64,000 bases of DNA from Kofleriaceae bacterium (GTDB lineage Bacteria; Myxococcota_A; Polyangia; Haliangiales; Haliangiaceae): assembly GCA_965199985.1 (NCBI GenBank), contig CBDAUU010000120.1:1188-65187 (forward strand), given 5' to 3'. The position numbers were made by a program, and so were the translations under genes. Under the pieces are notes generated by a model. The model had not been told where the DNA came from, did not search any database, and worked only from the letters and a program-made list of their open reading frames with translations. This document shows positions 37,527 to 50,999 of this stretch, piece by piece (the first letter of the stretch is position 1; every line of letters begins with the position of its first letter).

Positions 37527-38487
37527 CGCGGCGGATACTAGCGCGTTCGGCGAGCTGCAGCGCTCCACCGAGTGCGCCGACGACGAGGTGGGCCAGCCAC
37601 AGCGCGAGTGATGCGGCGACGGCATCGGACTCGGGCATGTGGAACAAGGATGCGCCGAGCGAGATGAACACCGCCTCGCGCGCGCCGGCCCCGCCGACGG
37701 TGATCGGGAGGAACGTGGTGGCCGCCGCGAGCGGGACGATCAGGAGCGAGGCGCCGAGCCCGACGTCCGGATCGACCGCGTGGAGGAGGACGAACCCGGC
37801 GAGCGCGACGAGCGCTTGCGTGAGGACGGAATAGAACGCCGCCAGCACGAACGCGGTGCCCGAGGTCAGCGCAGGGACGCGCTCGGCGATCGTGCGGAGC
37901 TTGCCGGGCAGGAGCGGGGCGAGGCGCCGCGCGAACGGCAGGGCGAGCACCAGCACGAGCGAGCCGGCGATGCCGAGGCCGCTCCACAGATAGAGCGAGC
38001 CGACCTGCAGCCCGCCACCGGCGACGGCGAGGCCGATCGCGAGCAGCAGGAACACGCCGAACAGGCCGAGCGCGCGCTCGACGAGCACCACCGCGAGGCC
38101 GGCGGTCGCGCCGCGCTCGCCGAACACCTCGCGCGTGACGACGCCGCGCACCACATCGCCGGCGACGGCGCCGGGGAGGTAGTTGTTGTAGAAGAACGAG
38201 ATGAAGTAGAGGACGGTCGCGCGGGGCAGGGAGGGGCGGGTGTCGGCGCCGTAGGCGACGAGCAGGTTGCGCCAGCGTGCGGCGCCGGCGACGACGTTCA
38301 GGGCTACCAACGCGATGGCGAGCAGGATCGCGGAGATCGAAATCCGGGAGAACGCGGTGCTCGCCTTGGCGAAATCGACGACGTGGATGATGTACGCGAT
38401 GCCGGCGGCGGTGCCGCCCCAGCGCAGCAGCCAGCCCCACCGCTGCCAGGGTGATCGCGCCGGTTCCATGGCGGCGGAGCATGCCAC
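37504..38487 (-). CDS. UPF0104 / LPG_synthase_TM 'flippase-like' membrane protein, copy 2 (divergent)
   Basis: 'AARWRNLL', 'YNNYLPGAVAGDVVRG' and 8 predicted TM stretches. Overlaps the downstream GT-C paralogue. Confidence 0.6.
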   Translation of the reverse strand: MACSAAMEPARSPWQRWGWLLRWGGTAAGIAYIIHVVDFAKASTAFSRISISAILLAIALVALNVVAGAARWRNLLVAYGADTRPSLPRATVLYFISFFYNNYLPGAVAGDVVRGVVTREVFGERGATAGLAVVLVERALGLFGVFLLLAIGLAVAGGGLQVGSLYLWSGLGIAGSLVLVLALPFARRLAPLLPGKLRTIAERVPALTSGTAFVLAAFYSVLTQALVALAGFVLLHAVDPDVGLGASLLIVPLAAATTFLPITVGGAGAREAVFISLGASLFHMPESDAVAASLALWLAHLVVGALGGALQLAERASIRRDVPADPR

Positions 38488-39649: not shown

Positions 39650-40798
39650 TCAGGTTGGTTCGCCGGCGAGCGGCTGCTCGTCGAGCGAGACGCCCTGCAA
39701 TCGGCGCGTGCCGCCCTCGTACCAGAGCCCCCACGCGGCCGTGACGATGCAGAACGCCACTTGCGTGATGTAGACCAGAAATACGAACGCGGCGCCGGGC
39801 CCGATCACGATCGCGGTCGGGAAATACATCGTCATGCCCGCGTAGATGCCGGCCTGAAACACGCCGAGCAGTCCTGGGGGCCCCGGGATCAGGATCGCGC
39901 AGCTGAGCATGCCCATGAGCGCGCACGCTTCGCCGAACGTGACTGCAGATCCATCGCCGTGGGTGACACCACACGCGAGGGCGAGCACCCACATGCCCGC
40001 CGCATTGAACATCCAGTACGCAGCGGTCTCGAGGACGAAGCCGAAGAAATCGCGACCGCGGCTGAACACGTGAAGGCCATCGGCGAGGTGGCTCGCCATG
40101 TTCGAGAGCTTATCGGCAAGCTTCTGCGAGACGAGGCCGAACACCACGTGCGTCGCTCGCACCGCGAACGTGCGCGCGAAATAGAACACCGCGATCACGG
40201 TGAACGCGACGGAGAACAAGCCGAGCATCGCGAAGCCCGCCCAGCGGACATGCGCAACGCTGATCTTGAGACCCACGACGGTCTCCGGCAGCGGATGGAG
40301 CGTCGGCACCGTGAGGAGCGCGATCGCGAGCACGATGCTGATGAACAGCCCATCGATCACGCGCTCCGCGACGACCGTGCCGGTTGCTGCGGTGAGCGTG
40401 AGCACCGGCTTGCCCGGGCGGATCTCCTCGGGACGCGTGCGGAGCAGCAGCGGCCGCGCGAGCTCGCCGAGGCGAAATGGGAGCGCCCACATCGCGAAGA
40501 ACCCGATGCACGAGACGGCGAACAGGCGCAGCTTCGGGACCACGATGATCTGGCGGAGCAGGAACCGCCACCGCACCGCGCGGAACCAGGTCATCCCGAA
40601 CAGCAGCGGGAAGTACACCGCGAGCGCCGACCACCGAACGTGATCGAAGTCGCCACCGTCGGGGACGAGCTTCAAGCCGCCCGATTCGATCGTGTAGACC
40701 ACGCCCACGGTAATCAGGGCGGAGGCGATCAACTTCAGCGCGTGGCGGCGCAGGAAACCTTGTTGGGCGGGCCCGGGCATGGATCGCGGGCGGTTCAT
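39650..40798 (-). CDS. UPF0104 / LPG_synthase_TM 'flippase-like' membrane protein, copy 3
   Basis: 'WFRAVRWRFLLRQII', 'PFRLGELARPLL', 'SRGRDFFGFVLETAAYW' and 'LIPGPPGLLGVFQAGIYAGMTMYF'. Start taken at 'MNRPRSMPG' (ATG 40798). Confidence 0.65.
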   Translation of the reverse strand: MNRPRSMPGPAQQGFLRRHALKLIASALITVGVVYTIESGGLKLVPDGGDFDHVRWSALAVYFPLLFGMTWFRAVRWRFLLRQIIVVPKLRLFAVSCIGFFAMWALPFRLGELARPLLLRTRPEEIRPGKPVLTLTAATGTVVAERVIDGLFISIVLAIALLTVPTLHPLPETVVGLKISVAHVRWAGFAMLGLFSVAFTVIAVFYFARTFAVRATHVVFGLVSQKLADKLSNMASHLADGLHVFSRGRDFFGFVLETAAYWMFNAAGMWVLALACGVTHGDGSAVTFGEACALMGMLSCAILIPGPPGLLGVFQAGIYAGMTMYFPTAIVIGPGAAFVFLVYITQVAFCIVTAAWGLWYEGGTRRLQGVSLDEQPLAGEPT

Positions 40799-40888
40799 AA
40801 CACGCGAACGGCGCTGGTGAAGTGGTAAGGAACGGCCCAAGGGCGTGATTTGGCTCGCTCGGGACGCGGCATGTGATATCCCCGCCCC

Positions 40889-42511
40889 GTGTCCGACACG
40901 ATGCGTCTGGAATTCACGTCGACCCCTGCCGTCGTCGCGGCTCGTTCGCACAACCGCTACGTGGCGTGCCCGGGTTGCCAGCGCGACGTGCCGAAGTACC
41001 TGTTCTATCGGGCCGGCGTCCGGTTCGTCCGCTGCGCGAACTGCGATGCGGTCTACGTCAATCCGGCGCGCGAAGAGCCCACGAACATCCTCGATATCGA
41101 GGCGCTCGAGCAATTCACGAACCCGCGCGATCGCGAGCTCGTGGTCGCGGATTTCTCCGCGCTACTCGAGCACGTCGCGCGCGATTACAAGAAGCAGACC
41201 GGCAAGCCGCTCGAGCGCACCCTGCTGCTCGGCCGCTGGCTTCCCGAATTCGAGAGCGCGGGCGCGGCGGTCGGGCTGCAGGTCGCGCCGATCACGGACG
41301 AGGTGCTGCACAAGGTCGCGGTCGATTCCGAGATCCGCTGGGCCGCGCCGTACCTCGAGCGCGCGCCGCAGGTCGTGATCCTCCACGAGCTCCTCGAGAG
41401 CTGCAGCGATCCGGGTGCTGTGGTCGCGAAGCTCGTCGCCGCGCTGCCGCTGAACACGCAGTTCGTCGTCACGTACACCAACGCCGATTCGTTTCCCGCG
41501 CGCATCTTGCGCCGCAGCTGGGCGCAGTTCTTCGGCGCCAAATCCGCGTACCTCTCGACGAGCAACCTGAGCTCGCTGCTCGCGCGCCACGGACTCGTCC
41601 TCAAGGCGCAGTACCCGCTGCCGGTCACACGCACGGCCGGGTACGTCGCGCAGATGGCCGAACGCCTGGTTCCGAACATGGGGATCGCGACGGCGGCGAA
41701 CGCGACGCCGCTGCGCAACCTCAGCATCCCGGTCCGCGCAGGCAATCGCGTCGCGGTGTTCGGCCGCAGCCACCTGTCCTCGGGACCGGCCGAGAAGCTC
41801 TCGATCATCTTGCCGGTATTCAACGAGCACCGCTTCGCGGCACAGGTCATCGATGCGGTGCTCGCGAAGGAGCTGCCGATCGAGCGCGAGCTGATCATCG
41901 TCGAGAGCAACAGCACGGACGGCACGCGCGAGATCGTCGCGAGGTACGAAGGCCGCCCTGGCGTGCGCGTGGTCTACGAGGACAAGCCGCGCGGCAAGGG
42001 CCACGCGGTTCGCACCGGGCTCCAGCACGTGACCGGCACGATCGTGCTCATCCAGGATTCGGACTTCGAGTACGACATCGACGACTACGACGCACTGCTC
42101 GAACCGCTGCTCCAGCACAAGGCGATGTTCGTCCTCGGGTCGCGCAGCCTCGGCCTCGATGACTGGAAGGTCCGCAAGTACGACGCGACGCCGATCCGCG
42201 GCGTGCTGCTCAACTTCGCGCAGGTCATGTTCGCGAAGACGTACAACGTGCTCTACCAGCAGCGCGCGACCGATGTGAACACGATGTTCAAGGTGTTCCG
42301 CAGCGAGTGTCTCGACGGGCTCGACCTGCACTCGAATGGCTTCGAGCTCGATATCGAGCTCGCGTGCAAGCTCGTTCGCAACGGCAACTCGCCGTTCGAG
42401 GTGCCGGTGAACTACGTCGCGCGCGGCTTCGAGGACGGCAAGAAGATCCGGTTCTGGCGCGATGCGGTGCCGAGCTACTTCGCGCTGTATCGCTACCGCT
42501 TCACCAAGTAA
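40889..42511 (+). CDS. Fusion protein: N-terminal zinc-ribbon + methyltransferase-like fold (degenerate SAM motif) and C-terminal GT2 glycosyltransferase
   Basis: 'CPGCQRDV...RCANCDAVYVNP'. C-terminal 'LSIILPVFNEHRF', 'VESNSTDGT', 'IQDSDFEYD' and 'FELDIEL'. Confidence 0.7.
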   Translation: MSDTMRLEFTSTPAVVAARSHNRYVACPGCQRDVPKYLFYRAGVRFVRCANCDAVYVNPAREEPTNILDIEALEQFTNPRDRELVVADFSALLEHVARDYKKQTGKPLERTLLLGRWLPEFESAGAAVGLQVAPITDEVLHKVAVDSEIRWAAPYLERAPQVVILHELLESCSDPGAVVAKLVAALPLNTQFVVTYTNADSFPARILRRSWAQFFGAKSAYLSTSNLSSLLARHGLVLKAQYPLPVTRTAGYVAQMAERLVPNMGIATAANATPLRNLSIPVRAGNRVAVFGRSHLSSGPAEKLSIILPVFNEHRFAAQVIDAVLAKELPIERELIIVESNSTDGTREIVARYEGRPGVRVVYEDKPRGKGHAVRTGLQHVTGTIVLIQDSDFEYDIDDYDALLEPLLQHKAMFVLGSRSLGLDDWKVRKYDATPIRGVLLNFAQVMFAKTYNVLYQQRATDVNTMFKVFRSECLDGLDLHSNGFELDIELACKLVRNGNSPFEVPVNYVARGFEDGKKIRFWRDAVPSYFALYRYRFTK

Positions 42512-42515: not shown

Positions 42516-43871
42516 GTGCTGAAGAAGCTGCAGCCGGCTGCGATCCTCGGGATCGGATGGCTCCTGCTTCTCGGGTACGCGTATCCCGGAACGCTGACGT
42601 TCGATTCGCTCGACCAGCTGGTCCAGGCGCGCACCGGCATCTATCGCGACGATCATCCGCCGGCGATGGCCGCGCTGTGGCGGCTCGTCGAGCACGTGAT
42701 CGCGGGGCCGTTCGGCATGCTCGCGCTACAGAGCCTCGCGTTCGCGATCGGCCTGTATCTGATCTTCCGGCGCACGTTCGCGGCGCGGGGTGCGGCGATC
42801 GCGGCGGTCGCCCTGCTGTTGTTTCCGCCGGTGTTCGCACCGCTCACCGCGATCTGGAAGGACTCGCTCATGGCGGGCTTCCTCGTGCTCGGCATCGGTG
42901 CGCTCCTCCGCACGACGCGAGGGTGGAGCGTGCTCGGCGCCGTCGCGATCGCGATCGCGGCCGCGATGCGACTCAACGCGGCCGCGGCCACGCTCGCACC
43001 GATGGTGCTGTTGTTCACGTGGGGGTGGGTCGGCTGGAAGCGGTACGTGCTCGCGACGGCCGTGTGGATCGCGACCGTCGCCGCGGCGTTCGGGCTGAAC
43101 GGCGCGCTGGCCGACCGGCAGGCCTATGGCTGGCACACGACGCTCGCGCTGTACGACATCGTCGGCACGCTGGCGAACACCGAAGAGCCGATTCCGGATC
43201 CGACGCTGGTGGAGCTCCTCGACGGCAGCAAGCTCCTCGTCCAGCACGACATTCAGCCGACGGCGCGCCAGATCTACGACCCGCGCAATTTCATCAGCTC
43301 GGTGACGGATCCCGAGCATGCGTTCTGGCACTTCTCGCTGCGCAACGACAAGCCGGTGCTCGAGCCGTTTCGCACGGCGATCAGCCGGACCTGGACGTAT
43401 CTCGTGACCCACGAGCCGCGCGCGTACCTCGCGCACCGCCTGATCACGATGAACCTGCTGCTCGATAACGGCGTTGCGATGCCCTGGCGCGGCGAAGCGC
43501 AAACGGAGCTCCGCGCATCCCTGGGCGTCTCGAATGGCGCGAGCTCGGCGCAGCTCGCGGTGTATCGCAAGCTCGTCAAGTTCGGCCGCCGGACGCACCT
43601 GTTCTCGCCGTGGATCTATCTCATCACCGCGCTGATCCTCCTCGCCATCTCGCTGCGGGAGCGCGATGTGCTTGCACTGCTACTCAGCGGCCTCTGCTAC
43701 GAGGGCACGCTCGTGATCTTCGCGGCGACCAGCGACTATCGCTACTCGCACTGGCTGGTCACGACCTGTTGCATCGCGATCGTGACGCTGTTCGCGCGCC
43801 GGCTCACCGGCCGGAGAGAAACGACAGCCGCTGAAACAACCGCTCCGGTGTATTCCTCACGATCGGCATGA
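42516..43871 (+). CDS. Polytopic membrane protein, GT-C-like (paralogue of 49686..50999)
   Basis: 'YAYPGTLTFDSLDQL', 'DDHPPAMAALW' and 'IWKDSLMAGF'. GTG 42516 start is inferred. The 3' end overlaps the convergent SDR gene by 68 nt. Confidence 0.5.
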   Translation: MLKKLQPAAILGIGWLLLLGYAYPGTLTFDSLDQLVQARTGIYRDDHPPAMAALWRLVEHVIAGPFGMLALQSLAFAIGLYLIFRRTFAARGAAIAAVALLLFPPVFAPLTAIWKDSLMAGFLVLGIGALLRTTRGWSVLGAVAIAIAAAMRLNAAAATLAPMVLLFTWGWVGWKRYVLATAVWIATVAAAFGLNGALADRQAYGWHTTLALYDIVGTLANTEEPIPDPTLVELLDGSKLLVQHDIQPTARQIYDPRNFISSVTDPEHAFWHFSLRNDKPVLEPFRTAISRTWTYLVTHEPRAYLAHRLITMNLLLDNGVAMPWRGEAQTELRASLGVSNGASSAQLAVYRKLVKFGRRTHLFSPWIYLITALILLAISLRERDVLALLLSGLCYEGTLVIFAATSDYRYSHWLVTTCCIAIVTLFARRLTGRRETTAAETTAPVYSSRSA

Positions 43872-44535
43872 TCACGCCCCAGAAGGAAGGCACGTAGGCT
43901 TCGGCCGCGCCGCTCTCGATCGCGTGCACGATGCCGCGCGCCACGGCGGGAGGCTTGCCGAACAGCGCGTGCTTGGTGTGGCTCTGTGTCATCGGCGAAT
44001 CGACGGGACCCAGCTTCAGCGTCGTGACGCTCACGCGCGCGGGATAGAGCCGGGTGCGAAGGCCTTGGAGGTAGATATTCAAGGCGCCCTTGGCCGCGCC
44101 GTAGGTGTAGTTCCGCGGTCGGCCACGGTCGCCGGCAACCGAGGTGATGACCCCGATCCGCCCACCGCGCGCGCCTTCCATCGCGTTCGCGAGCGGCACG
44201 AGCAGCGAGACGACGCTCGTGAAGTTGACGCGCAAGATGCGCTCGGCCTCGTCGAACGCGTGCTCGCTCGCGAGCTGATCACCGAGGTCGCCGTGCGCGA
44301 TCAACGCAACATCGATGGTGCCGAGCACGGCAAGCGCCTCTGCGATCACCGCGGCGTTGCGATCGAGCTGCCCGAAATCGGCGATCTGCGTGGTCGCGTT
44401 CGCGCACCGCTCGGCGACGGCGGCGAGCTTTTCGGGATTGCGGCCGACCAGGTGGATGCGATCGCCGCGGGCCGCGTAGATCGCAGCAGCTTCGGCTGCG
44501 ATCGCCGATGTCGCGCCGAGGACGAGGACGTTCAT
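43804..44535 (-). CDS. DprE2-like short-chain dehydrogenase/reductase, copy 2
   Basis: 'VLVLGATSAIAAEAA' and 'YGAAKGAL' (YxxxK). C-terminal tail 'YVPSFWGVIMPIVRNTPERLFQRL' resembles the DprE2 C-terminus. Confidence 0.7.
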   Translation of the reverse strand: MNVLVLGATSAIAAEAAAIYAARGDRIHLVGRNPEKLAAVAERCANATTQIADFGQLDRNAAVIAEALAVLGTIDVALIAHGDLGDQLASEHAFDEAERILRVNFTSVVSLLVPLANAMEGARGGRIGVITSVAGDRGRPRNYTYGAAKGALNIYLQGLRTRLYPARVSVTTLKLGPVDSPMTQSHTKHALFGKPPAVARGIVHAIESGAAEAYVPSFWGVIMPIVRNTPERLFQRLSFLSGR

Positions 44536-45263
44536 CAGAAGTTGATCTTTCGCATGACGAAACGCGGGAGCGAGCGGATGACGAGCATCACGAGCGCCCA
44601 CATGCGCGGCGCGTAGACGACCGGCTTCTTGTTGTCCATCGCGCGCACGACGAGCGCTGCGACCTTGCGCGGCTCGCCCGCGAACGGCGGCGGCTTGAGC
44701 CCGGCGGTCATCTCGGTGCGGACGAAGCCAGGCTTGACGCAGGTCACGGCCAGCCCGGCCGCGTGGAACTTGTGGTCGAGCGCCTCGAGGTACGTGGTCA
44801 ACCCGGCCTTGCTCGCACCGTAGATCGCGACTGGCTTACGCCCGCGCTCCCCGGCCACCGACGAGAACACCACGAGGTGCCCGCCACCGCGCGCGAGTAG
44901 ACGCGTGCGCGCGTGCTCGCAGAACGCGACGGTGTTCGCGAAGTTCACGGTGACGAGCCGGCGGGTCAGCTCGACATCCGCCTCGAGCGCCTCCTGGCTC
45001 GCGAACATGCCCGCCGTCACGATCACGGTCTCGAATTCGCCGGCGCGGTCGAGCGCCTCGGCGAAGCCCTCGGGGTGCTCGAGATCGCAGATGCCGAAGC
45101 CGATGGCCTCTTGGCGCGCGTGATGGACCTGCAGATCGGCGGCGCTGCGCGCGAGGTCAGCGGCATTGCGGCCGAGCAGGAACACGGAATCGCCCCGCTC
45201 GACGAGCGTGCGCGCGACCTCGCGACCCATTCCTGACGTGCCGCCGAGAATGACAACCTTCAT
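44535..45263 (-). CDS. dprE2: Decaprenylphospho-D-erythro-pentofuranosid-2-ulose 2-reductase-like SDR (DprE2-like)
   Basis: 'VVILGGTSGMGREVA' and 'YGASKAGL'. Tail 'VVYAPRMWALVMLVIRSLPRFVMRKINF' resembles the recalled M. tuberculosis DprE2 tail '...[27 protein letters not shown]'. ATGA overlap with the DprE1-like gene. Confidence 0.8.
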   Translation of the reverse strand: MKVVILGGTSGMGREVARTLVERGDSVFLLGRNAADLARSAADLQVHHARQEAIGFGICDLEHPEGFAEALDRAGEFETVIVTAGMFASQEALEADVELTRRLVTVNFANTVAFCEHARTRLLARGGGHLVVFSSVAGERGRKPVAIYGASKAGLTTYLEALDHKFHAAGLAVTCVKPGFVRTEMTAGLKPPPFAGEPRKVAALVVRAMDNKKPVVYAPRMWALVMLVIRSLPRFVMRKINF

Positions 45264-46582
45264 GCCGGATCTCCAAACAGGCGGACCGATTGAGCGCTGC
45301 GCAGGCGGTGCGCGGGATCCCACTTCTCGCGTACGGCGAGGAATGCATCGAGCCGCGGCTCCATCGCGCGAAAGTGCTCGGCACGCGTGAAGCGATCCTT
45401 CGTCATGTAGATCCGGCCGCCCGCGGCGATCACGAGCTCGTTCAGGCGATCGATCACGCGCTGGATGTCGGCGACCACCGCGATATCGACGGCGATCGAG
45501 GTGCCCTCCAGCGGAAACGACAGCATCCCTTTACCCTGCGGACCGCAATCCTTGATCACGCACAGCGGCGATGCGCAGCCGAGCGCGGCCAGCTGCTTCA
45601 TGAACTCGCGCACGGCAGGTGCGCCGGCAGCGCGCGGTATCACGCACTGGTACTGGGTCATGCCGCGGCTGCCATACGCGCGATTCCAGTGCAGGATCGC
45701 ATCGAGCGGGTAGAAGAACGGCTCCGGCGAGACCACGCGCGTGATCTTCGTGTGCAGCTGCTTGCGGTAGTACAGCGCGTTGAACGCGCGCGCTGACCAC
45801 GGATTGAGCGCCCAGTTCGGTAGCACGACCGGTAGCGACCGCGCACTCGGAACCTTCGGTACACCGGGATGCGCCTCGTCGGGCTGCGCCCAATCGCCGA
45901 TCATCATGAGCCCACGCCCGGTGCTGCGGCCGCGGCTCAAGCAATCGATCCAGCCCATCGTCATCGGCGACGTGGCCGCCGAACGGTCGAGCGCGGTGAG
46001 AAACGCATCGATGTTCGGAACCCGCTCGCTCTCCATCCGCACCCACGGGCTCGCGATGCGCTTCATCGCGAACTCCACCTCGAGGATGTGGCCGAGGAGG
46101 CCCATCCCGCCGATCGCGGCATAGAACAGCTCCGCTTGCTCCGTCGGGCTGCATGTCACGACCTCGTTACTCGCGACGCGAAGGCGCAGCTCGCGGACGT
46201 GCGCGCCGAAGCAGCCATCGCGGTGGTGATTCTTGCCGTGCACGTCACTGGCGACCATGCCGCCGACCGTCACGTACTTGGTGCCCGGGCTGACCGGTGT
46301 GAACCAGCCGCGTGGCAAGAAGACCCGGTTGAGCTCGGCGAGGCTGATGCCGGCTTCGACTCGGAGCACACCGGTCTCCGGATCGAACGCCAGGATGCGA
46401 TCCGCGAGGCGCGTCGCGACGACCTTGTCATCTGCGTTCGCGGGCAGGGACGAGTCGCCGTAGGACCGGCCGAGCCCGCGGGAGAGCCGCGCGTCGATCG
46501 TGAGGCGCTCGAGATCCGACGACAGCACCTCGCGCCCGGGCGCCGGGATGCGGCCCCATCCTTCGAGCGTCGGGTCAGCCAT
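45260..46582 (-). CDS. dprE1: Decaprenylphospho-beta-D-ribofuranose 2-oxidase-like FAD enzyme (DprE1-like)
   Basis: 'LEGWGR', 'GLGRSYGDS', 'VTVGGMVASDVHGKNHH', 'ELFYAAIGGMGLLG', 'FYPLDAILHWNRAYG', 'YQCVIP' and 'SFPLEGTSIAVD' parallel DprE1 (Rv3790) blocks recalled from memory. Confidence 0.85.
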   Translation of the reverse strand: MADPTLEGWGRIPAPGREVLSSDLERLTIDARLSRGLGRSYGDSSLPANADDKVVATRLADRILAFDPETGVLRVEAGISLAELNRVFLPRGWFTPVSPGTKYVTVGGMVASDVHGKNHHRDGCFGAHVRELRLRVASNEVVTCSPTEQAELFYAAIGGMGLLGHILEVEFAMKRIASPWVRMESERVPNIDAFLTALDRSAATSPMTMGWIDCLSRGRSTGRGLMMIGDWAQPDEAHPGVPKVPSARSLPVVLPNWALNPWSARAFNALYYRKQLHTKITRVVSPEPFFYPLDAILHWNRAYGSRGMTQYQCVIPRAAGAPAVREFMKQLAALGCASPLCVIKDCGPQGKGMLSFPLEGTSIAVDIAVVADIQRVIDRLNELVIAAGGRIYMTKDRFTRAEHFRAMEPRLDAFLAVREKWDPAHRLRSAQSVRLFGDPA

Positions 46583-47489
46583 AGATGATGTAGAGGATCG
46601 TCACCGCAGCGGCTGCCAGATCGAGGACGAACCACGGATCTCGCAACATCGCTTCGGTGGGCGATTCATCCTTGGGCCGGTACAGCGCGAGCCAGACGAA
46701 GCGAATGATGCCGAGCGCGACGAACGGCGTGGAGAGGACGAGGCGTGACGTGTGAAACATCTCGACGGTGTGCTCGTCGAGGGTGTACGCCGCATACGCC
46801 GCCGTCGTGGCCACGGCCAGGACGATCATCGCGAGCCGGACGGTGGTCAGCCGATAGCCCGCCAGTGCGGCACGGGTCGCGGTCGACCCTTTGCCGGAGC
46901 GCTCCGCCCACGCGAGCTCGTGAGCGCGCTTGCCGAGCGCCAGGAACAGCGCGAGTAACCCGGTGCAGGCAAGCAGCCAGCCCGAGGCGGGAACATCGAT
47001 CGCGGCGGCCCCCGCGAGGACGCGCAACAGGAACCCGCTCGCGATCAAGCACACGTCGACGAATGCGACGTGTTTCAGCCGCACGCTGTAGGCGACGTTC
47101 TGCGCGAGGTAGAGGCCGGCCCAGACGCCGAGCATGCGCGACAGCAGCGTGCTGCCGACCAGCGCGATGACCGCGAGGATCCCGGCCGCGAGCAGGGCGG
47201 TATCCTCCGACACTTTGCCCGAAGCGATCGGCCGCCGACACTTGGTCGGATGGACGCGATCCTGCTCGACATCGAGCACATCGTTGAACGCGTAGACCGC
47301 GCCCGCCAGGAGCGAAAATGCGAGCACCGCCACCGCCTCACGCCACACGTAGGTCTTGTCGAGAAGGTGGTGCGAGAACACCAGCGGTGCCGCGACGAAC
47401 ACGTTCTTGACCCACTGGTGGGGTCGTAACGTCTTGATCAGCGGGAGCACCCGAGAGGGATAACCGGCGCTGTCGGTGGAGTCCAGCAT
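46575..47489 (-). CDS. UbiA-family decaprenyl-phosphate phosphoribosyltransferase-like enzyme
   Basis: 'LRPHQWVKNVFV', 'NDVLDVEQDRVHPTKCRRPIASG' (NDxxDxxxD) and 8-9 TM. ATG 47489 ('MLDSTDS') chosen inside the longer ORF. Overlaps dprE1 by 8 nt. Confidence 0.8.
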   Translation of the reverse strand: MLDSTDSAGYPSRVLPLIKTLRPHQWVKNVFVAAPLVFSHHLLDKTYVWREAVAVLAFSLLAGAVYAFNDVLDVEQDRVHPTKCRRPIASGKVSEDTALLAAGILAVIALVGSTLLSRMLGVWAGLYLAQNVAYSVRLKHVAFVDVCLIASGFLLRVLAGAAAIDVPASGWLLACTGLLALFLALGKRAHELAWAERSGKGSTATRAALAGYRLTTVRLAMIVLAVATTAAYAAYTLDEHTVEMFHTSRLVLSTPFVALGIIRFVWLALYRPKDESPTEAMLRDPWFVLDLAAAAVTILYIIYG

Positions 47490-47538
47490 CGCGATCGTGA
47501 CATTGACCGCACGTCGAGCACGGGCGAAGGTAGCCGGC

Positions 47539-49689
47539 GTGAAACGGCCGAAGCTGGTGTGGACGCGCCCCGCCGTGGGGACGCTGGTGGGCGTGGTGGC
47601 GGTCGTCATCGCCTTCGCGGCTCTCGCCTGGCACCGGCGATGGATCGCCGACGACGGCTTGATCGTGATTCGCACGGTCCGCAACGTGCTCGCGGGCAAC
47701 GGGCCGGTCTTCAACGCGTTCGAGCGCGCGGAGGCCAACACCAGCACACTCTGGACCTACGCCCTCGTCCTGATCGTCGGCGTGTTGCGGACCGAACCGG
47801 TCTTCACGTCTGTCGTTGTCGGATGGGCGTTCTCGGTCTGTGGAGTCGCGCTCGCGCTCGATGCCACCCGCCGCTTTCATCGTGCGCGCGGCTCGACCGC
47901 CCTGGTGCTGCCGGCCGGCGCACTCGTCCTGATCGGCACCCAGCCGTTCTGGGACTTTGCGACCTCCGGGCTCGAAACCGGGCTTGCAACGCTGTGGCTC
48001 GCGGCCTGCTGGTGGTTGCTCGTCGCGCTGCGTGCCGAGAGCTCGCTTCGGTCGAAGCTCGCGATCGCCTTCGTGTTCGGGCTTGGCCCGCTGGTGCGGC
48101 CAGACTTCGCCGTCGTTTCGGTCGTCTTCTGCATCGGGTTCTGGCTCCTGGTGCGTCCCAGCTGGAAGCTCGCGGCGCTGCTGCTCGGCGTCGCGCTCGC
48201 ACTACCGGTCACGTACGAAGTGTTTCGCGCGGGCTACTACGGCGTGCTCGTGCCTCTCCCTGCGATCACCAAGAGTGCAGGAGACGCGGATTGGGCACGT
48301 GGCATCGCGTACCTGCTCGACTACGTGACTCCGTACTTCGTGTACGTGCCAGTGGTGATCCTCGCGATCCTCGCGTGCATCGCCCTGCTCCGACGACGGA
48401 TCGTAGACCGTGTCCGGATCCTCATCGGAACGACGACCGTTGCCGGACTGTTGATGACCGCCTTCGTCCTCCGAGTCGGCGGCGATTTCATGCATGGCCG
48501 CATGATGCTGCCGCCGACGTTCATGCTGCTGTTTCCGGTGATGCTCCTTCCTGTGCGCCGCATCACCGCACCCGCGTTGGGTGCGATCGCGATCTGGGCC
48601 GTCGTCGCCCTCGTGATCCGGACCGATGGCAAGCCTCATTCAAGCGCGGAGCGCGTGTTCGACGAACGTCATAACTACGCGAACTGGACGAGGTCCCGGC
48701 ATCCAACAGAGGCTTCGGTTTTCCTGCAAGCGGACATTTACTCGACGAATCTTGTCAACGCGGCGCTCGCCAACCACCGTCACCGGTTGATCTCGGAAGG
48801 CGGCCTCGATCTCGCCGCGAACCCTGCGTATTCCGCTCCGGTGATGTACGCGGTCGGGCGGTTGGGCACGGGCGGTGCGACGGCACCGCTCGATGGCATC
48901 GTGATCGACGTCCTCGGCCTCGCGAATCCGCTCGGTGCGCATATCACGGTCAATCAGCCCGGAATGACCGGCCACGAGAAGAGCCTCCCGTGGGCGTGGA
49001 TTCGGGCGGACTACACGGATCCCGCGACCGACGCCAGGCCAAGAAACGCGCTCAACGTCGCAGCGATCCGGGCCGCACGGCACGCGATGGGCTGCGGCGA
49101 TCTTGCGGAGCTCTTCGCCTCGGTTCGCGAACCGATGACAGCGAGCCGCTTTCTCGCGAACCTCGAAGGATCGGTACGCCGGACCCGGCTCGTCGTTCCG
49201 AGCGATCCGTTCGACGCCGAGAAGAAGTTCTGCCCGGACATGCTGCCTCGTGACCTCACCAACCTGGATCCGGACGTCGTGGCATCGAGCAGTTACGAAG
49301 GAGAAGGGTGGGGCGTCGACGCAGCGGTCGACGGCCTCACGACCTCGACGAGCGAATCGAAGGGATTCTCGAGCGAGGTCGGTCCGACCCAGTGGATCGA
49401 GGTTCACCTCCACAAACCCTCGTCGGTGTCGACGGTCACGCTCTATCCGCGCGCCGATGACCTGCCAGGTGCGGGCTTCCCGATCGATTTCCAGATCGAG
49501 ATCTGGAACGGCAGCGCGTGGATCCCGCGCGTGACTCGAACCGCCGTTCCGAACCCGGGCTCCACCGCGCAGGTGTTCACGTGGTCCCCGGCCGACCAGA
49601 CCGATCGCGTTCGCATCACCGCGACGAAACTGCCAACCGTGTCGAAGGAAGGGCCGCGGCTCCAGTTCGCCGAGATCGAAGTGAAGTGA
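47539..49689 (+). CDS. GT-C-type polytopic glycosyltransferase (arabinofuranosyltransferase candidate) fused to a C-terminal F5/8 type C (discoidin) domain
   Basis: 'WIADDGLIVIRTVRNVLAGNGPVFNAFERAEANTSTLW' (first-loop acidic motif) and more than 10 TM. C-terminal 'WIEVHLHKPSSVSTVTLYPR...FQIEIWNGSAWIP...RVRITATKL...LQFAEIEV'. The start could be 47476. Confidence 0.65.
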   Translation: MKRPKLVWTRPAVGTLVGVVAVVIAFAALAWHRRWIADDGLIVIRTVRNVLAGNGPVFNAFERAEANTSTLWTYALVLIVGVLRTEPVFTSVVVGWAFSVCGVALALDATRRFHRARGSTALVLPAGALVLIGTQPFWDFATSGLETGLATLWLAACWWLLVALRAESSLRSKLAIAFVFGLGPLVRPDFAVVSVVFCIGFWLLVRPSWKLAALLLGVALALPVTYEVFRAGYYGVLVPLPAITKSAGDADWARGIAYLLDYVTPYFVYVPVVILAILACIALLRRRIVDRVRILIGTTTVAGLLMTAFVLRVGGDFMHGRMMLPPTFMLLFPVMLLPVRRITAPALGAIAIWAVVALVIRTDGKPHSSAERVFDERHNYANWTRSRHPTEASVFLQADIYSTNLVNAALANHRHRLISEGGLDLAANPAYSAPVMYAVGRLGTGGATAPLDGIVIDVLGLANPLGAHITVNQPGMTGHEKSLPWAWIRADYTDPATDARPRNALNVAAIRAARHAMGCGDLAELFASVREPMTASRFLANLEGSVRRTRLVVPSDPFDAEKKFCPDMLPRDLTNLDPDVVASSSYEGEGWGVDAAVDGLTTSTSESKGFSSEVGPTQWIEVHLHKPSSVSTVTLYPRADDLPGAGFPIDFQIEIWNGSAWIPRVTRTAVPNPGSTAQVFTWSPADQTDRVRITATKLPTVSKEGPRLQFAEIEVK

Positions 49690-50999
49690 GGCCGAGCTCG
49701 CGCGCCATTCTCGTCGTGGGCTGGCTCGGGATGATGCTCTATGCGTTTCCCGGCTATATGAGCTACGACTCGGTCGCGCAGCTGATGGAGGCGCGCCTCG
49801 GGTGGTTCGATGACGGTCATCCGCCGGCGATGGCCTTTCTCTGGGGCAACGTCGATGGCTTCGTGGCCGGGCCGGTCGGCATGCTGGTCATCCAGGTCAC
49901 GTGCTTCCTGATCGGCGCATACCTGATCCTGCGCCAGCGCCTTGCGCCGAGGGGCGCCGCGGTCTGTGCCGTGCTGGTGCTGTGGTTTCCGCCCGTCGCG
50001 AACACGATGAGTGTGATCTGGAAGGACTCGCAGATGGCGGCCTTCATGTTGCTCGGGACCGCGCTGCTGCTCGAGCCGCGCCGGCACTGGAAGATCATCG
50101 GACTCGTGCTGCTCGGCCTCGCGACTGCGCTTCGCTACAACGCGCTCGCGATGACGATCGAGCTGGTCGTCTTGTTGTTCGTGTGGAACCCGACGTGGCA
50201 CTGGTGGAAGCGCTACGCCCTCGGATTGCTCGCGTTCGTCGTCATCACCGTTGGAGCGCGGGTCGTCACCACCGCCCTCACCGATACCCCGCGGTTCATG
50301 TGGCATCGCAGCATCGCGTTGCTCGATATCGTGGGCACGCTCCGCTACGCGCCCGATATTCCCGAGGCAACGCTCGAGCAGGAGCTGGCGGGCACGCCAC
50401 TCGTCGTCCCGAACGACCTCCAGGCGCGGGCTCGCAAGACGTGGCGACCCGACGTGTCGCGCACCGAGCAGTTGTGGGATGCAACCGACCGGTTCTTCGA
50501 GCGCCCGGATACGCCGTCAGAGCGCGAGGCGGTAGCTCGAGCGTGGCGAGCGATCGTGTTCGCGCATCCGAAGGCGTACCTCGAGTACCGGTGGGTCTTG
50601 TTCGCGCAGCTGATCCAGCTCGACGACACGCAGCTGGGCTCGCCCGTTTATTTTTGGTTCGGCGACATCCAGGACCTCGCGCGCAGCGCTGTCTATTCGG
50701 ATCACGATGCAGGCCCGAGTGGCCTGCAGTCTGCGCTCCACCAGGTCATGGAATGGCTCGGCGAGACCTGGTTGTTCCACGTTTCCGTGTATGTCGGACT
50801 GGCCCTCTTGCTGTTGCCGTTCTGCTGGGGAGACCGGCTGACATTCGCACTCCTCTCATCGGGCCTTGCCGGCGAGCTGTTCCTGTTCGTGATCGCGCCG
50901 ACGGTGGACGTGCGGTACTCGTTCTGGCTCGTGCTGACGACCGTGCTCGCGGTCATCCTGATCACCGCGCGTAGGGTATTGTCGCGGCCACAGCTATGA
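49686..50999 (+). CDS. Polytopic membrane protein, GT-C-like (paralogue of 42516..43871)
   Basis: GTGA overlap with the upstream gene. 'YAFPGYMSYDSVAQL', 'DDGHPPAMAFLW' and 'IWKDSQMAAF'. Confidence 0.55.
   Translation: MRPSSRAILVVGWLGMMLYAFPGYMSYDSVAQLMEARLGWFDDGHPPAMAFLWGNVDGFVAGPVGMLVIQVTCFLIGAYLILRQRLAPRGAAVCAVLVLWFPPVANTMSVIWKDSQMAAFMLLGTALLLEPRRHWKIIGLVLLGLATALRYNALAMTIELVVLLFVWNPTWHWWKRYALGLLAFVVITVGARVVTTALTDTPRFMWHRSIALLDIVGTLRYAPDIPEATLEQELAGTPLVVPNDLQARARKTWRPDVSRTEQLWDATDRFFERPDTPSEREAVARAWRAIVFAHPKAYLEYRWVLFAQLIQLDDTQLGSPVYFWFGDIQDLARSAVYSDHDAGPSGLQSALHQVMEWLGETWLFHVSVYVGLALLLLPFCWGDRLTFALLSSGLAGELFLFVIAPTVDVRYSFWLVLTTVLAVILITARRVLSRPQL

What the first reader, a model, noticed from the sequence alone, without database searches (positions are those of the whole stretch)
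43804..47489. Mycobacterial-type polyprenyl-phospho-D-arabinose (DPA) donor pathway in a non-actinobacterial-looking genome
Four co-directional minus-strand genes are joined by start/stop overlaps (8-nt and ATGA-type).
- A UbiA-family enzyme carries 'RPHQWVKN' and 'NDVLDVEQD...RRPIASG', as in decaprenyl-phosphate phosphoribosyltransferase Rv3806c.
- A DprE1-like FAD oxidase carries 'GLGRSYGD', 'VTVGG..ASDVHGKNHH' and 'YQCVIP'.
- Two tandem DprE2-like SDRs share the characteristic hydrophobic C-terminal tail.

Together these are the enzymes that convert PRPP plus polyprenyl-phosphate into the lipid-linked D-arabinofuranose donor of Corynebacterineae cell walls. Outside that group the pathway is known only sporadically, for example in Pseudomonas aeruginosa pilin D-Araf glycosylation.

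The rest of the window (STPK-TPR, sigma-54 EBP, TIGR02996/LRR, PilZ) looks myxobacterial. Two things deviate from the canonical gene set: two DprE2 paralogues are present instead of one, and no PAP2-type DPPR phosphatase is visible.
Basis: partly seen in the sequence, partly recalled or inferred. Interest (0 to 1): 0.75.

Follow-up and report, generated by a model that had tools for sequence, protein, structure and literature searches.

The report
Lipid-linked D-arabinose operon inserted beside AftB-like transferase
A myxobacterial (Kofleriaceae-like) genome carries a four-gene operon predicted to make the lipid-linked D-arabinofuranose donor best known from tuberculosis bacteria, inserted right next to a relative of the mycobacterial arabinose-adding enzyme AftB; such donor genes prove common in environmental bacteria, so it is a new example, not a new kind of system.

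Summary
Four co-directional minus-strand genes (43804-47489) are joined by 8-, 4- and 1-nt overlaps, and every quoted motif is present.

In silico the genes are:
- a Rv3806c-type polyprenyl-phosphate phosphoribosyltransferase;
- a DprE1-type FAD oxidase;
- two DprE2-family reductases.

- The divergent neighbour (47539-49689) is an AftB-family GT-C arabinofuranosyltransferase (E 6e-75 to the solved AftB; nucleophile and donor-phosphate residues conserved) with a C-terminal discoidin domain. It lies in a glycan cluster of at least 31 kb.
- The four-gene block is a 3.7-kb insertion flanked by a 31-nt direct repeat. Relatives have an uninterrupted junction there and keep the UbiA gene and the DprE1-SDR-SDR trio at separate loci.
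- The pathway is not rare. DprE1-like genes occur in more than 600 species genomes across many phyla, and a 2024 paper already generalises such pentofuranose systems.

The two reductases are ancient paralogues conserved as a trio in Kofleriaceae. Mycobacteria have a parallel in DprE2 and Rv2073c.

Verdict: a new member of a known kind, with a useful natural linkage of donor synthesis to an AftB-like enzyme. No chemistry was tested.

The parts
46575..47489 (-). UbiA-superfamily polyprenyl-phosphate 5-phosphoribosyltransferase (Rv3806c / PPPRS type), first gene of the operon
   Evidence: NCBIfam NF008977 scores 235.5 bits against a cutoff of 234. PDB 8j8j (Rv3806c) matches at E 5e-40. Nine of 11 PRPP/Mg/decaprenyl-phosphate contact residues are identical: R22, K28, Y70, N73, D77, K87, R90, Y138, K143. 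The other two are Q135->N and K208->A.
45260..46582 (-). DprE1-type FAD-dependent polyprenyl-phospho-ribose 2'-oxidase
   Evidence: NCBIfam NF053785 gives E 3e-108 but 362.8 bits, below the cutoff of 500. M. tuberculosis DprE1 structures match at E 2e-70 over residues 32-431; the next family scores 1e-8. HGKNHH and the catalytic Lys (YMTKD) are conserved. Cys387 is replaced by Ala.
44535..45263 (-). SDR-A, DprE2-family reductase; belongs to the clade that always accompanies Myxococcota/Acidobacteriota-type DprE1
   Evidence: The best PDB hit is M. tuberculosis DprE2 at E 1e-27; the next hit is 4e-19. NCBIfam DprE2 scores 166 bits, below the cutoff of 250; PRK07102 scores 217 bits. Orthologues lie directly downstream of DprE1 in 34 of 38 related loci. 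Its clade is shown in the tree.
43804..44535 (-). SDR-B, second DprE2-family reductase; 31% identical to SDR-A and in a different clade
   Evidence: M. tuberculosis DprE2 is the only PDB hit at E <= 1e-12 (8.5e-20). Identity to SDR-A is 31%. It clusters with the single SDR of proteobacterial/Chlorobi UbiA-DprE1-SDR clusters. It is conserved next to DprE1/SDR-A in Kofleriaceae relatives L081, L167 and L168.
43771..43801 (.). Left copy of the 31-nt direct repeat bounding the inserted four-gene block; lies in the 3' end of the upstream GT-C-like gene
   Evidence: Repeat family D3. The 16-nt exact core occurs only at these two places in the window; 0.02 matches are expected by chance.
47486..47516 (.). 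Right copy of the 31-nt direct repeat; contains the complement of the UbiA ATG
   Evidence: It matches the left copy at 25 of 31 positions, and the first 16 are exact.
47488..47538 (+). Non-functional remnant of the ancestral C-terminal coding sequence of the upstream GT-C-like gene (IAIVTLTARRARAKVAG)
   Evidence: The L169 and L084 orthologues end ...IAVVTLTARRARAKVRA* immediately before the AftB-like start. The window carries this string upstream of GTG 47539.
47539..49689 (+). AftB-family (GT-C) arabinofuranosyltransferase homologue with a C-terminal F5/8 type C (discoidin) carbohydrate-binding domain
   Evidence: PDB 9dlf (AftB) matches at E 6e-75 over residues 25-578. NCBIfam NF041481 gives E 3e-86 but 290 bits, below the cutoff of 1050. 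Pfam F5_F8_type_C matches residues 603-718. The precomputed domain is PF26371 AftB_C. D61/D62, T91, E172, R221 and R372 are conserved; T274 is Pro. The start at GTG 47539 follows P0121 (716 aa) and the orthologues.
42516..43871 (+). Polytopic membrane protein of an unclassified family with a predicted divergent GT-C fold; its last ~22 codons read antisense through the SDR-B 3' end
   Evidence: It has 265 homologues, none with a Pfam domain. The AF2 model has pLDDT 90.6. The top Foldseek hits are ArnT, AglB/STT3, PimE, ALG9 and EmbA/B/C, with probability 0.85-1.0 but TM-scores of only 0.3-0.43. The new C-terminal tail is shown.
49686..50999 (+). Paralogue (39% identical) of the 42516-43871 GT-C-like protein, coupled to the AftB-like gene by a GTGA overlap
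   Evidence: blastp gives 39% identity over 453 aa. The GTGA overlap lies at 49686-49689.
50996..52852 (+). Polytopic membrane protein carrying the same C-terminal discoidin-like domain as the AftB-like protein; fold of the membrane part untested
   Evidence: hhalign against the AftB-like family gives probability 99.5 and E 2e-23 for the C-terminal domain only. The ATGA overlap is shown. A single-sequence AF2 model failed, with pLDDT 41.
40889..42511 (+). GT2 glycosyltransferase of the polyprenyl-phosphate-sugar-synthase type with an N-terminal methyltransferase-like region
   Evidence: Pfam Glycos_transf_2 matches at 1e-24. The best NCBIfam similarities are AglJ, PpgS and dolichyl-phosphate hexose transferase.
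39650..41113 (-). LPG_synthase_TM (MprF flippase-like) membrane protein; candidate lipid-linked sugar flippase
   Evidence: Pfam PF03706 matches at 7e-20. Its role as a flippase is inference only.
37504..38487 (-). LPG_synthase_TM / TIGR00374 flippase-like membrane protein
   Evidence: Pfam PF03706 matches at 5e-34. TIGR00374 scores 44.9 bits against a cutoff of 43.2.

Best explanation
The four genes form one translationally coupled operon that makes a polyprenyl-phospho-beta-D-arabinofuranose donor on the cytoplasmic face of the inner membrane.

Proposed steps (all activities inferred from homology; the only thing shown directly is the sequence anatomy and the insertion):
1. [quoted passage not shown]
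2. An unlinked or unspecific phosphatase removes the 5'-phosphate.
3. The DprE1-like flavoenzyme oxidises C2' to the 2'-keto intermediate.
4. One or both DprE2-family reductases reduce the intermediate to the arabino configuration.
5. The donor is flipped to the periplasmic face. Candidate flippases are the three LPG_synthase_TM proteins or the MurJ-like protein of the cluster.
6. In the periplasm the adjacent AftB-family GT-C enzyme uses the donor. Its discoidin domain would hold the acceptor glycan.
7. The flanking unclassified GT-C-like proteins may use the donor as well. Together these enzymes would decorate or build a surface glycan encoded by the surrounding cluster of at least 31 kb.

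The operon reached this position by insertion into the junction between two coupled GT-C genes. That insertion brought together genes that relatives keep at three separate loci.
For: Family assignment:
- UbiA-like: passes the NCBIfam equivalog cutoff and matches Rv3806c at E 5e-40. It keeps the PRTase-specific contacts R22, K28, K87, R90 and K143. The structure paper says the phosphoribose-binding sites are not conserved in ordinary UbiA prenyltransferases.
- DprE1-like: matches M. tuberculosis DprE1 over its full length at E 2e-70 with catalytic residues kept. The next family is 60 orders of magnitude weaker.
- Both SDRs have DprE2 as their best solved relative, including the C-terminal tail.

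Coupling of the genes:
- The junction overlaps are 8, 4 and 1 nt.
- UbiA-DprE1 and DprE1-SDR fusion proteins exist elsewhere.
- The canonical UbiA-DprE1-SDR order occurs in about 30 loci from other phyla.

Likely consumer of the donor:
- The AftB homologue matches at E 6e-75. It has the DD nucleophile motif and both donor-phosphate arginines.
- It starts 49 nt from the UbiA start codon.

Insertion:
- A 31-nt direct repeat bounds the block. Its 16-nt core is unique to the two sites (0.02 expected by chance).
- Orthologous junctions in L084 and L169 are uninterrupted.
- Close relatives hold DprE1-SDR-SDR alone.
- Close relatives hold UbiA alone, next to mevalonate-pathway genes.

Known framework: PMC11127046 and the P. 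aeruginosa work.
Against: - No chemistry was done. No sugar composition is known for this organism.
- The DprE1-like, SDR and AftB-like proteins all score below NCBI's equivalog cutoffs: 363 versus 500, 166 and 131 versus 250, and 290 versus 1050 bits. The SDRs fit the generic PRK07102 model better than the DprE2 model.
- The AftB residue that contacts the sugar C2 position (T274) is Pro here. Rv3806c Q135 and K208 are replaced by N and A.
- No 5'-phosphatase and no GtrA-type protein are present in the window.
- The usual home of the UbiA orthologue is beside mevalonate-pathway genes. That context would also fit a different isoprenoid-related role.
- None of 80 DprE1 loci and none of 80 UbiA loci from other organisms has an AftB-like neighbour. 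The physical link therefore rests on this one genome.
Confidence: 0.75

Rival explanations
1. The operon makes a lipid-linked pentofuranose, but not only D-Araf, or not D-Araf at all. The second, phylogenetically distinct reductase would give a different stereochemical outcome or act on another intermediate. The cluster would then use two donors, or a donor other than DPA.
For: - SDR-A and SDR-B are only 31% identical and fall in different clades.
- Both are kept under selection as a DprE1-SDR-SDR trio in several Kofleriaceae: 73-78% identity to the window proteins, similar to the 75-82% of DprE1.
- Kelly et al. show that epimerase content decides which pentofuranose is added, and that the GT-C can be donor-promiscuous.
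Against: - Both SDRs have DprE2 as their best solved relative, with an intact Ser-Tyr-Lys centre and the DprE2 tail.
- A redundant DprE2 paralogue that makes the same product is documented in M. tuberculosis (Rv2073c).
- The known route to Xylf uses a different, GalE-like epimerase.
- The neighbouring transferase belongs specifically to the Araf-transferring AftB family.
Confidence: 0.12
2. The block is a recent horizontal acquisition of a mycobacterial or actinobacterial cell-wall module by a myxobacterium.
For: - The block is demonstrably an insertion bounded by a direct repeat.
- Its best characterised relatives are mycobacterial proteins.
Against: - The closest homologues of all parts are myxobacterial. 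DprE1 is 80-84% identical to Kofleriaceae proteins against roughly 40% to M. tuberculosis. UbiA has relatives of up to 83% identity in soil metagenome loci with a TRAP/mevalonate gene context.
- The SDR-A clade is specific to Myxococcota and Acidobacteriota.
- The G+C of the block is 0.675-0.679, within the window range of 0.645-0.705.
- The insertion therefore looks like an intragenomic or within-lineage rearrangement.
Confidence: 0.03
3. The genes are generic members of their superfamilies with no role in pentose chemistry: an aromatic or haem-type prenyltransferase, a vanillyl-alcohol-oxidase-type flavoenzyme and fatty-acid-type ketoreductases.
For: - Three of the four proteins miss NCBI's equivalog cutoffs.
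- Orthologous UbiA genes sit beside mevalonate-pathway genes.
Against: - Other UbiA subfamilies score 60 bits or less, against 235 bits for the PRTase model.
- Other FAD-oxidase families reach E 1e-15 or worse, against 3e-108 and 2e-70.
- The PRPP-contact residues are conserved.
- Gene fusions and a conserved gene order link exactly these three families.
Confidence: 0.03
4. The arrangement is a metagenome assembly chimera, not a real genomic arrangement.
For: The source is a MAG contig. No related genome examined shows the same arrangement.
Against: - A chimera would need two precise joins at gene boundaries.
- It would also need a diverged (25/31) duplicate of the target sequence. The left copy continues an open reading frame to a new stop codon, and the right copy retains the ancestral C-terminal codons.
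- Composition is uniform across both joins.
Confidence: 0.02

Closest known systems
Mycobacterial / corynebacterial DPA pathway (Rv3806c, Rv3807c, DprE1 Rv3790, DprE2 Rv3791, Rv3789) with GT-C arabinofuranosyltransferases (AftA-D, EmbA-C)
   Same: - The same three enzyme families occur in the same reaction order.
- PRPP-binding and catalytic residues are conserved.
- A second DprE2-like reductase also exists in M. tuberculosis (Rv2073c).
- The donor genes are clustered with a GT-C transferase of the AftB family.
   Different: - The host is a Gram-negative myxobacterium.
- The lipid is probably undecaprenyl rather than decaprenyl phosphate (inference).
- There is no PAP2 phosphatase and no GtrA/SMR-like Rv3789 equivalent in the window.
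- DprE1 has Ala instead of Cys387.
- The AftB homologue carries a discoidin domain that mycobacterial AftB lacks.
- There are no Emb or AftA/C/D homologues. Unclassified GT-C-like families are present instead.
- The acceptor glycan is unknown.
Three-component periplasmic pentofuranose glycosylation systems of Gram-negative bacteria (Kelly et al., PNAS 2024, PMC11127046)
   Same: The logic is the same: a polyprenyl-P-ribofuranose synthase using PRPP, optional epimerisation (DprE1/E2 homologues where the glycan contains Araf), export, and a GT-C with a carbohydrate-binding module acting in the periplasm.
   Different: - The synthase has no fused HAD phosphatase domain.
- No MATE or GtrA flippase is present; LPG_synthase_TM and MurJ-like proteins are found instead.
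- The GT-C belongs to the AftB family, a retaining enzyme in mycobacteria, not to GT136.
- Several further GT-C-like genes suggest more than a single side-chain addition.
Pseudomonas aeruginosa Pa5196/PA7 pilin arabinosylation genes PsPA7_6245-6249 plus TfpW
   Same: PPPRS, DprE1 and DprE2 homologues are clustered in a Gram-negative. The phosphatase is dispensable there.
   Different: - P. aeruginosa has one DprE2, a PAP2-type 6245 and a GtrA-like 6247.
- Its transferase, TfpW, is unlinked and is not an AftB homologue.
- Its acceptor is pilin. Here nothing points to pilin.

Membership tests
Polyprenyl-phosphate 5-phosphoribosyltransferase (Rv3806c / DPPR synthase, NCBIfam NF008977) | Score at or above the curated equivalog cutoff | tested here: met
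   235.5 bits against a cutoff of 234, so it passes only narrowly.
Polyprenyl-phosphate 5-phosphoribosyltransferase (Rv3806c / DPPR synthase, NCBIfam NF008977) | Mg2+/PRPP/decaprenyl-phosphate contact residues of the solved structure: R22, K28, Y70, N73, D77, K87, R90, Q135, Y138, K143, K208 | tested here: met
   Nine of 11 are identical. Q135 is Asn and K208 is Ala.
Polyprenyl-phosphate 5-phosphoribosyltransferase (Rv3806c / DPPR synthase, NCBIfam NF008977) | PRPP-dependent transfer of ribose-5-P to polyprenyl phosphate | not testable with these tools
   This needs an enzyme assay.
DprE1 (decaprenylphosphoryl-beta-D-ribose 2'-oxidase, NCBIfam NF053785) | Score at or above the curated equivalog cutoff | tested here: not met
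   362.8 bits against a cutoff of 500, although E is 3e-108 and the alignment is full length, profile positions 38-447 of 449. I treat it as a member of the wider DprE1-like family, not of the actinobacterial equivalog.
DprE1 (decaprenylphosphoryl-beta-D-ribose 2'-oxidase, NCBIfam NF053785) | FAD_binding_4 domain plus the DprE1-specific substrate domain with the catalytic Lys418 and the His132/Lys134 region | tested here: met
   PF01565 matches. The protein aligns with 4FDN-type structures at E 2e-70. HGKNHH and YMTKD are conserved.
DprE1 (decaprenylphosphoryl-beta-D-ribose 2'-oxidase, NCBIfam NF053785) | Cys387, the covalent benzothiazinone site (a drug-sensitivity feature, not needed for catalysis) | tested here: not met
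   Ala occupies the aligned position.
DprE2 (2'-keto reductase, NCBIfam NF053786) | Score at or above the curated equivalog cutoff | tested here: not met
   SDR-A scores 166.4 bits and SDR-B 131.3 bits against a cutoff of 250. Both score higher on the generic PRK07102 model.
DprE2 (2'-keto reductase, NCBIfam NF053786) | Classical SDR with a Ser-Tyr-Lys centre and the DprE2 C-terminal hydrophobic tail; DprE2 is the nearest solved relative | tested here: met
   SSVAG...YGASK in SDR-A and TSVAG...YGAAK in SDR-B. DprE2 is the top PDB hit for both, at 1e-27 and 8.5e-20, aligned to residue 252 of 254.
DprE2 (2'-keto reductase, NCBIfam NF053786) | Gene adjacent to and co-inherited with a DprE1 gene | tested here: met
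   SDR-A orthologues follow DprE1 in 34 of 38 related loci. SDR-B-clade genes follow DprE1 in proteobacterial and Chlorobi loci. DprE1-SDR fusion proteins exist.
AftB (terminal beta-1,2-arabinofuranosyltransferase, GT-C; NCBIfam NF041481, Pfam AftB_C) | Score at or above the curated equivalog cutoff | tested here: not met
   290 bits against a cutoff of 1050, with E 2.7e-86. It is a member of the wider AftB-like family only.
AftB (terminal beta-1,2-arabinofuranosyltransferase, GT-C; NCBIfam NF041481, Pfam AftB_C) | DD motif with the nucleophile D62, donor-phosphate R221 and R372, and sugar contacts T91, E172 and T274 | tested here: met
   D61, D62, T91, E172, R221 and R372 are identical. T274 is Pro.
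AftB (terminal beta-1,2-arabinofuranosyltransferase, GT-C; NCBIfam NF041481, Pfam AftB_C) | Retaining transfer of Araf from a polyprenyl-P-Araf donor, forming a beta-1,2 linkage | not testable with these tools
   This needs an enzyme assay and NMR of the product.
Three-component pentofuranose glycosylation system (PMC11127046) | PPPRS plus a 5'-phosphatase that together make polyprenyl-P-Ribf | tested here: inconclusive
   The PPPRS is present. No HAD or PAP2 phosphatase is present in the window. One could be encoded elsewhere.
Three-component pentofuranose glycosylation system (PMC11127046) | Dedicated flippase for the lipid-linked pentose | tested here: inconclusive
   No GtrA-like or MATE protein is next to the operon. 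Three LPG_synthase_TM proteins and one MurJ-like protein in the cluster are candidates only.
Three-component pentofuranose glycosylation system (PMC11127046) | Periplasmic GT-C transferase, often with a carbohydrate-binding module | tested here: met
   The AftB-like GT-C carries an F5/8 type C domain. A further predicted GT-C fold is present.

The most novel reading that the evidence does not exclude
Kofleriaceae-type myxobacteria assemble, on the periplasmic side, a D-arabinofuranose-containing surface polymer. It might be arabinan-like with beta-linked caps. The enzymes would be an AftB-family transferase fused to a discoidin domain plus at least two GT-C-like families that have no Pfam model.

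The conserved DprE1 + SDR-A + SDR-B trio would then be the myxobacterial form of the epimerase.

The active endo-D-arabinanase reported from Myxococcus xanthus was ascribed to predation on mycobacteria. It might instead, or also, remodel a self-made D-arabinan.
Probability: 0.3. Interest if true: 0.65.

Novelty: new member of a known kind. Interest (0 to 1): 0.42.

Why it matters
D-arabinofuranose glycans are usually treated as a hallmark of the mycobacterial cell envelope, and their synthesis is a major drug target.

This locus shows the full donor route wired directly to an AftB-type transferase in a Gram-negative predator lineage. The related loci show that DprE1/DprE2-type genes are widespread in soil phyla.

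The insertion event is a natural 'guilt by association' experiment. It links three gene sets that are normally dispersed in these genomes: the UbiA gene, the DprE1-SDR-SDR trio and the AftB-like GT-C cluster. It therefore gives a testable function to thousands of 'FAD-binding oxidoreductase', 'SDR' and 'discoidin domain-containing protein' annotations in Myxococcota.

The locus also offers non-pathogenic, divergent AftB and DprE1 homologues for mechanistic work. The DprE1 homologue has Ala at the Cys387 position. Finally, it bears on how D-arabinan-degrading enzymes in myxobacteria should be interpreted.

Tried and rejected
- **Exact look-up of the DprE1-like protein** found nothing on record. 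Context had to come from homologues.
- **Search for the same architecture elsewhere.** I checked 80 genome loci around DprE1 homologues. I also checked 80 metagenome loci around UbiA homologues. None combined UbiA/DprE1 with an AftB-like gene, so the arrangement remains a single case.
- **PDB profile searches** with the two unannotated membrane families gave no significant hits.
- **Profile-profile comparison** of the 42516-43871 family with the AftB-like family was not significant, with probability 0.5. Its GT-C assignment therefore rests on a fold search with low TM-scores of 0.3-0.43.
- **Single-sequence structure prediction** of the 50996-52852 protein failed with pLDDT 41, so no fold search was run on it.
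- **PAP2 motif scan and small-TM-ORF scan** for a phosphatase or a GtrA-like protein were negative.
- **Sigma-70 promoter scan** of 43.5-48 kb found no sites. The two terminator-like sites are at chance level.
- **Literature searches** for myxobacterial DPA or arabinofuranosyltransferase work found nothing relevant. A search for arabinose in M. xanthus LPS returned only synthetic-chemistry uses of arabinose.
- **Harvey et al. 2011** (PMC3151058) is not held in the library. Its content was taken second-hand from the 2020 preprint.
- **Rejected explanations:** recent transfer from Actinobacteria, generic superfamily members, and an assembly chimera. See the rival explanations.

Full report
**1. 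The observation**

The region 43804-47489 holds four minus-strand ORFs with coding-type composition:
- a UbiA-like gene, 46575-47489, 304 aa from the ATG;
- a DprE1-like gene, 45260-46582, 440 aa;
- SDR-A, 44535-45263, 242 aa;
- SDR-B, 43804-44535, 243 aa.

The junctions read directly from the sequence are:
- ATGGCTGA, an 8-nt overlap;
- ATGA, a 4-nt overlap;
- TGATG, a 1-nt overlap.

The only correction is that the third junction is a 1-nt overlap rather than an ATGA overlap.

**2. What the four proteins are**

*UbiA-like protein.*
- It passes, narrowly, the NCBIfam equivalog cutoff for decaprenyl-phosphate phosphoribosyltransferase: NF008977, 235.5 bits against 234. Other UbiA subfamilies score 60 bits or less.
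- It matches the solved Rv3806c structure at E 5e-40.
- Eleven residues contact Mg2+, PRPP or decaprenyl phosphate in that structure (PMC10994848). Nine are identical here: R22, K28, Y70, N73, D77, K87, R90, Y138 and K143. Q135 is Asn and K208 is Ala.
- The structure paper states that the phosphoribose-binding sites are not shared with ordinary UbiA prenyltransferases. This conservation therefore argues for a phosphoribosyltransferase.

*DprE1-like protein.*
- It aligns over its full length with M. tuberculosis DprE1 at E 2e-70. The next family, cytokinin dehydrogenases, reaches only 1e-8.
- The HGKNHH segment and the catalytic lysine are kept. The benzothiazinone-binding Cys387 is Ala.
- Its NCBIfam DprE1 score is 363 bits, below the equivalog cutoff of 500.

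*The two SDRs.*
- Both have M. tuberculosis DprE2 as their best solved relative, at 1e-27 and 8.5e-20. They align to the end of its hydrophobic C-terminal tail.
- Both fall below the DprE2 equivalog cutoff, and both fit the generic PRK07102 model better.

*Summary.* The proteins belong to the wider Rv3806c, DprE1 and DprE2 families. They are not the actinobacterial equivalogs.

**3.

The divergent plus-strand gene is an AftB homologue.
- It matches the solved AftB (9dlf) at E 6e-75 over about 550 residues.
- It matches NCBIfam NF041481 at E 3e-86, although 290 bits is far below the cutoff of 1050.
- Relatives carry the precomputed Pfam domain AftB_C.
- The residues shown to be essential in AftB are identical: the DD motif with nucleophile D62, and the donor-phosphate arginines R221 and R372. 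T91 and E172 are identical too. T274, which contacts the sugar C2 position, is Pro (PMC12041299).
- The C-terminus is an F5/8 type C (discoidin) domain, which mycobacterial AftB lacks.

The gene is followed, through GTGA and ATGA overlaps, by two more polytopic membrane proteins.
- One (49686-50999) is a 39%-identical paralogue of the protein encoded just upstream of the operon, 42516-43871. That family has only 265 detectable homologues and no Pfam model.
  - An AlphaFold model built on 39 sequences has pLDDT 90.6.
  - Its best PDB neighbours are all GT-C enzymes: ArnT, AglB/STT3, PimE, ALG9 and EmbA/B/C. Foldseek probabilities are 0.85-1.0, but TM-scores are only 0.3-0.43.
  - I call it a probable, divergent GT-C.
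- The other (50996-52852) shares only the discoidin-like C-terminal domain with the AftB homologue (hhalign E 2e-23).

The surrounding 30-61 kb region is a glycan cluster. It encodes:
- two GT2 proteins, one of the polyprenyl-phosphate-sugar-synthase type;
- two GT4 proteins;
- an NAD-dependent epimerase;
- three LPG_synthase_TM flippase-like proteins and a MurJ-like protein;
- at least six methyltransferases.

**4. The operon is an insertion**

A 31-nt imperfect direct repeat bounds the block exactly. It matches at 25 of 31 positions, and the first 16 are exact.
- One copy lies at 43771-43801, just outside the SDR-B stop codon.
- The other lies at 47486-47516 and contains the complement of the UbiA ATG.
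- The 16-nt core occurs nowhere else in the 64-kb window, where 0.02 matches are expected by chance.

Two related contigs carry colinear orthologues of the cluster genes.
- In L084 they are 52-87% identical to the window proteins.
- In L169 the upstream GT-C-like protein is 75% identical and the AftB-like protein 74% identical.

In both contigs the upstream GT-C-like gene ends ...I(A/S)VVTLTARRARAKVRA*, and its stop overlaps the GTG start of the AftB-like gene.

In the window that junction is split.
- The upstream gene reads ...IAIVTLFARR and then runs into a new 22-codon tail, antisense to the SDR-B 3' end. This explains the 68-nt convergent overlap.
- The ancestral ending IAIVTLTARRARAKVAG survives as a remnant immediately before GTG 47539, which is therefore the true AftB-like start.

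The G+C content is uniform across the joins. No transposase or integrase is present. The mechanism of the insertion is unknown.

**5. Where the parts come from**

*The DprE1-SDR-SDR trio.* The nearest DprE1 homologues are 75-84% identical and come from Kofleriaceae and other Myxococcota MAGs. Where their context could be read, they sit in a stand-alone DprE1-SDR-SDR trio among unrelated genes, with no UbiA gene.

*The UbiA gene.* The nearest UbiA homologues are 59-83% identical and were found in 80 metagenome loci.
- None lies next to DprE1, an SDR or an AftB-like gene.
- They lie between TRAP-transporter genes and mevalonate-pathway genes: an IDI-2-like FMN enzyme, a GHMP kinase and diphosphomevalonate decarboxylase.

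*The AftB-like clusters.* Those of relatives lack the donor genes within 10 kb.

*Inference.* This genome has consolidated three normally dispersed gene sets. The origin is within the lineage, not actinobacterial.

**6. The two reductases**

A neighbour-joining tree of SDRs adjacent to DprE1 genes (no support values) shows two groupings.
- SDR-A falls in a clade that accompanies the Myxococcota/Acidobacteriota type of DprE1. It is present in 34 of 38 such loci.
- SDR-B groups with the single SDR of proteobacterial and Chlorobi UbiA-DprE1-SDR clusters. M. tuberculosis DprE2 lies in that same half of the tree.

The pair is therefore an old paralogy, conserved as a trio in Kofleriaceae. It is not a recent tandem duplication.

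A functionally overlapping second reductase is documented in M. tuberculosis (Rv2073c; PMC13530172). Redundancy, a heteromer or a second product cannot be distinguished here.

**7. How common the pathway is**

They come from many phyla.
- About 30 loci from other phyla show the canonical UbiA-DprE1-SDR order.
- The exhaustive search found 1,657 50%-identity cluster representatives at E <= 1e-30.
- Those include DprE1-SDR and UbiA-DprE1 fusion proteins. The fusions independently tie the three activities together.
- Kelly et al. 2024 (PMC11127046) established the general scheme: a PRPP-dependent polyprenyl-P-ribofuranose synthase, optional epimerisation, a flippase and a GT-C with a binding module. 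They noted DprE1/E2 homologues wherever Araf is present.
- In P. aeruginosa the phosphatase homologue is not essential for arabinosylation.

**8. Most likely mechanism**

All steps below are inferred from homology.
1. PRPP plus polyprenyl phosphate gives polyprenyl-P-ribose-5-P (UbiA-like enzyme).
2. An unlinked phosphatase removes the 5'-phosphate.
3. The DprE1-like enzyme oxidises C2'.
4. SDR-A and/or SDR-B reduce the keto intermediate to polyprenyl-P-D-Araf.
5. The donor is flipped to the periplasm. The LPG_synthase_TM and MurJ-like proteins are candidates only.
6. The AftB-like enzyme transfers Araf, with its discoidin domain binding the acceptor glycan. The flanking GT-C-like proteins possibly do so too.

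My confidence is about 0.75. The main weaknesses are:
- the complete absence of chemistry;
- sub-threshold scores for three of the protein families;
- the T274P difference in the AftB homologue;
- the physical link to an AftB-like gene being seen in this one genome only.

**9. Comparison with known systems, and novelty**

The locus works like the mycobacterial DPA/arabinosyltransferase system and like the Gram-negative three-component pentofuranose systems. I file it as a new member of that known kind.

Features I could not find described in the searchable literature are:
- AftB-family enzymes with a discoidin domain in Myxococcota;
- the conserved DprE1 plus two-SDR trio;
- the unclassified GT-C-like family;
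- the insertion that joins donor synthesis to the transferase.

One published observation gains a possible alternative reading. Myxococcus xanthus has an active endo-D-arabinanase, which was ascribed to predation on mycobacteria (PMC10115798). If myxobacteria make D-Araf glycans themselves, the enzyme could also act on a self-made polymer. This is speculation.

**10. Verdict**

The identity of the pathway holds; its rarity and foreignness do not.
- Interest is moderate.

Noticed in passing
L087-L166 (e.g. L087:4633-9516, L090:10877-11956, L118:12820-13998): Close homologues of the UbiA-like gene (59-83% identical) in 80 metagenome loci sit in a conserved context. TRAP-transporter genes (DctP/Q/M, TAtT) lie upstream. 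Mevalonate-pathway genes lie downstream: an IDI-2-like FMN enzyme, a GHMP kinase and diphosphomevalonate decarboxylase. None of these homologues is next to a DprE1 gene.
   Followed up: partly
proteins P0376, P0438, P0445, P0457, P0489, P0467: Natural fusion proteins occur in the representative library. Five are DprE1-SDR fusions and one is a UbiA-DprE1 fusion. They are Rosetta-stone support for the functional coupling of the three enzymes.
   Followed up: partly
window 45260-46582 (-), residue aligned to M. tuberculosis DprE1 Cys387: The cysteine that benzothiazinones bind covalently is alanine here (EGTSIAVD). This enzyme would therefore be predicted insensitive to that drug class.
   Followed up: no
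window 42516-43871 (+) and 49686-50999 (+): These are two paralogues (39% identical) of a membrane-protein family with only 265 detectable homologues, all from Myxococcota-type metagenome bins and none with a Pfam domain. A confident AF2 model (pLDDT 90.6) resembles GT-C glycosyltransferases only distantly.
   Followed up: partly
window 30163-61245: The surrounding glycan cluster is unusually rich in SAM-methyltransferase genes. These are 34406-35488, 52872-53606, 57665-58387 and 58390-59346, plus methyltransferase-like regions in 40889-42511 and 55359-57668. The cluster also contains three LPG_synthase_TM flippase-like genes. ORF 55359-57668 combines a weak FemAB-like match with a methyltransferase domain, and its true start is uncertain.
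   Followed up: no
L084:9754-13967: A related contig carries two tandem AftB-like/discoidin paralogues where the window has one. It also has two copies of the 50996-52852-type protein.
   Followed up: no
window 47489-47539: After the insertion only 49 nt separate the divergent UbiA and AftB-like start codons, and that stretch is the remnant of the old coding sequence. No sigma-70-like promoter was found, so it is unclear how the downstream GT-C genes are transcribed.
   Followed up: partly
L025 (CAZDLW010000011.1): A contig binned as 'uncultured Bifidobacteriaceae' carries a Myxococcota/Acidobacteriota-type UbiA-DprE1-SDR-A cluster, with DprE1 54% and SDR-A 60% identical to the window proteins. 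The bin label looks doubtful.
   Followed up: no
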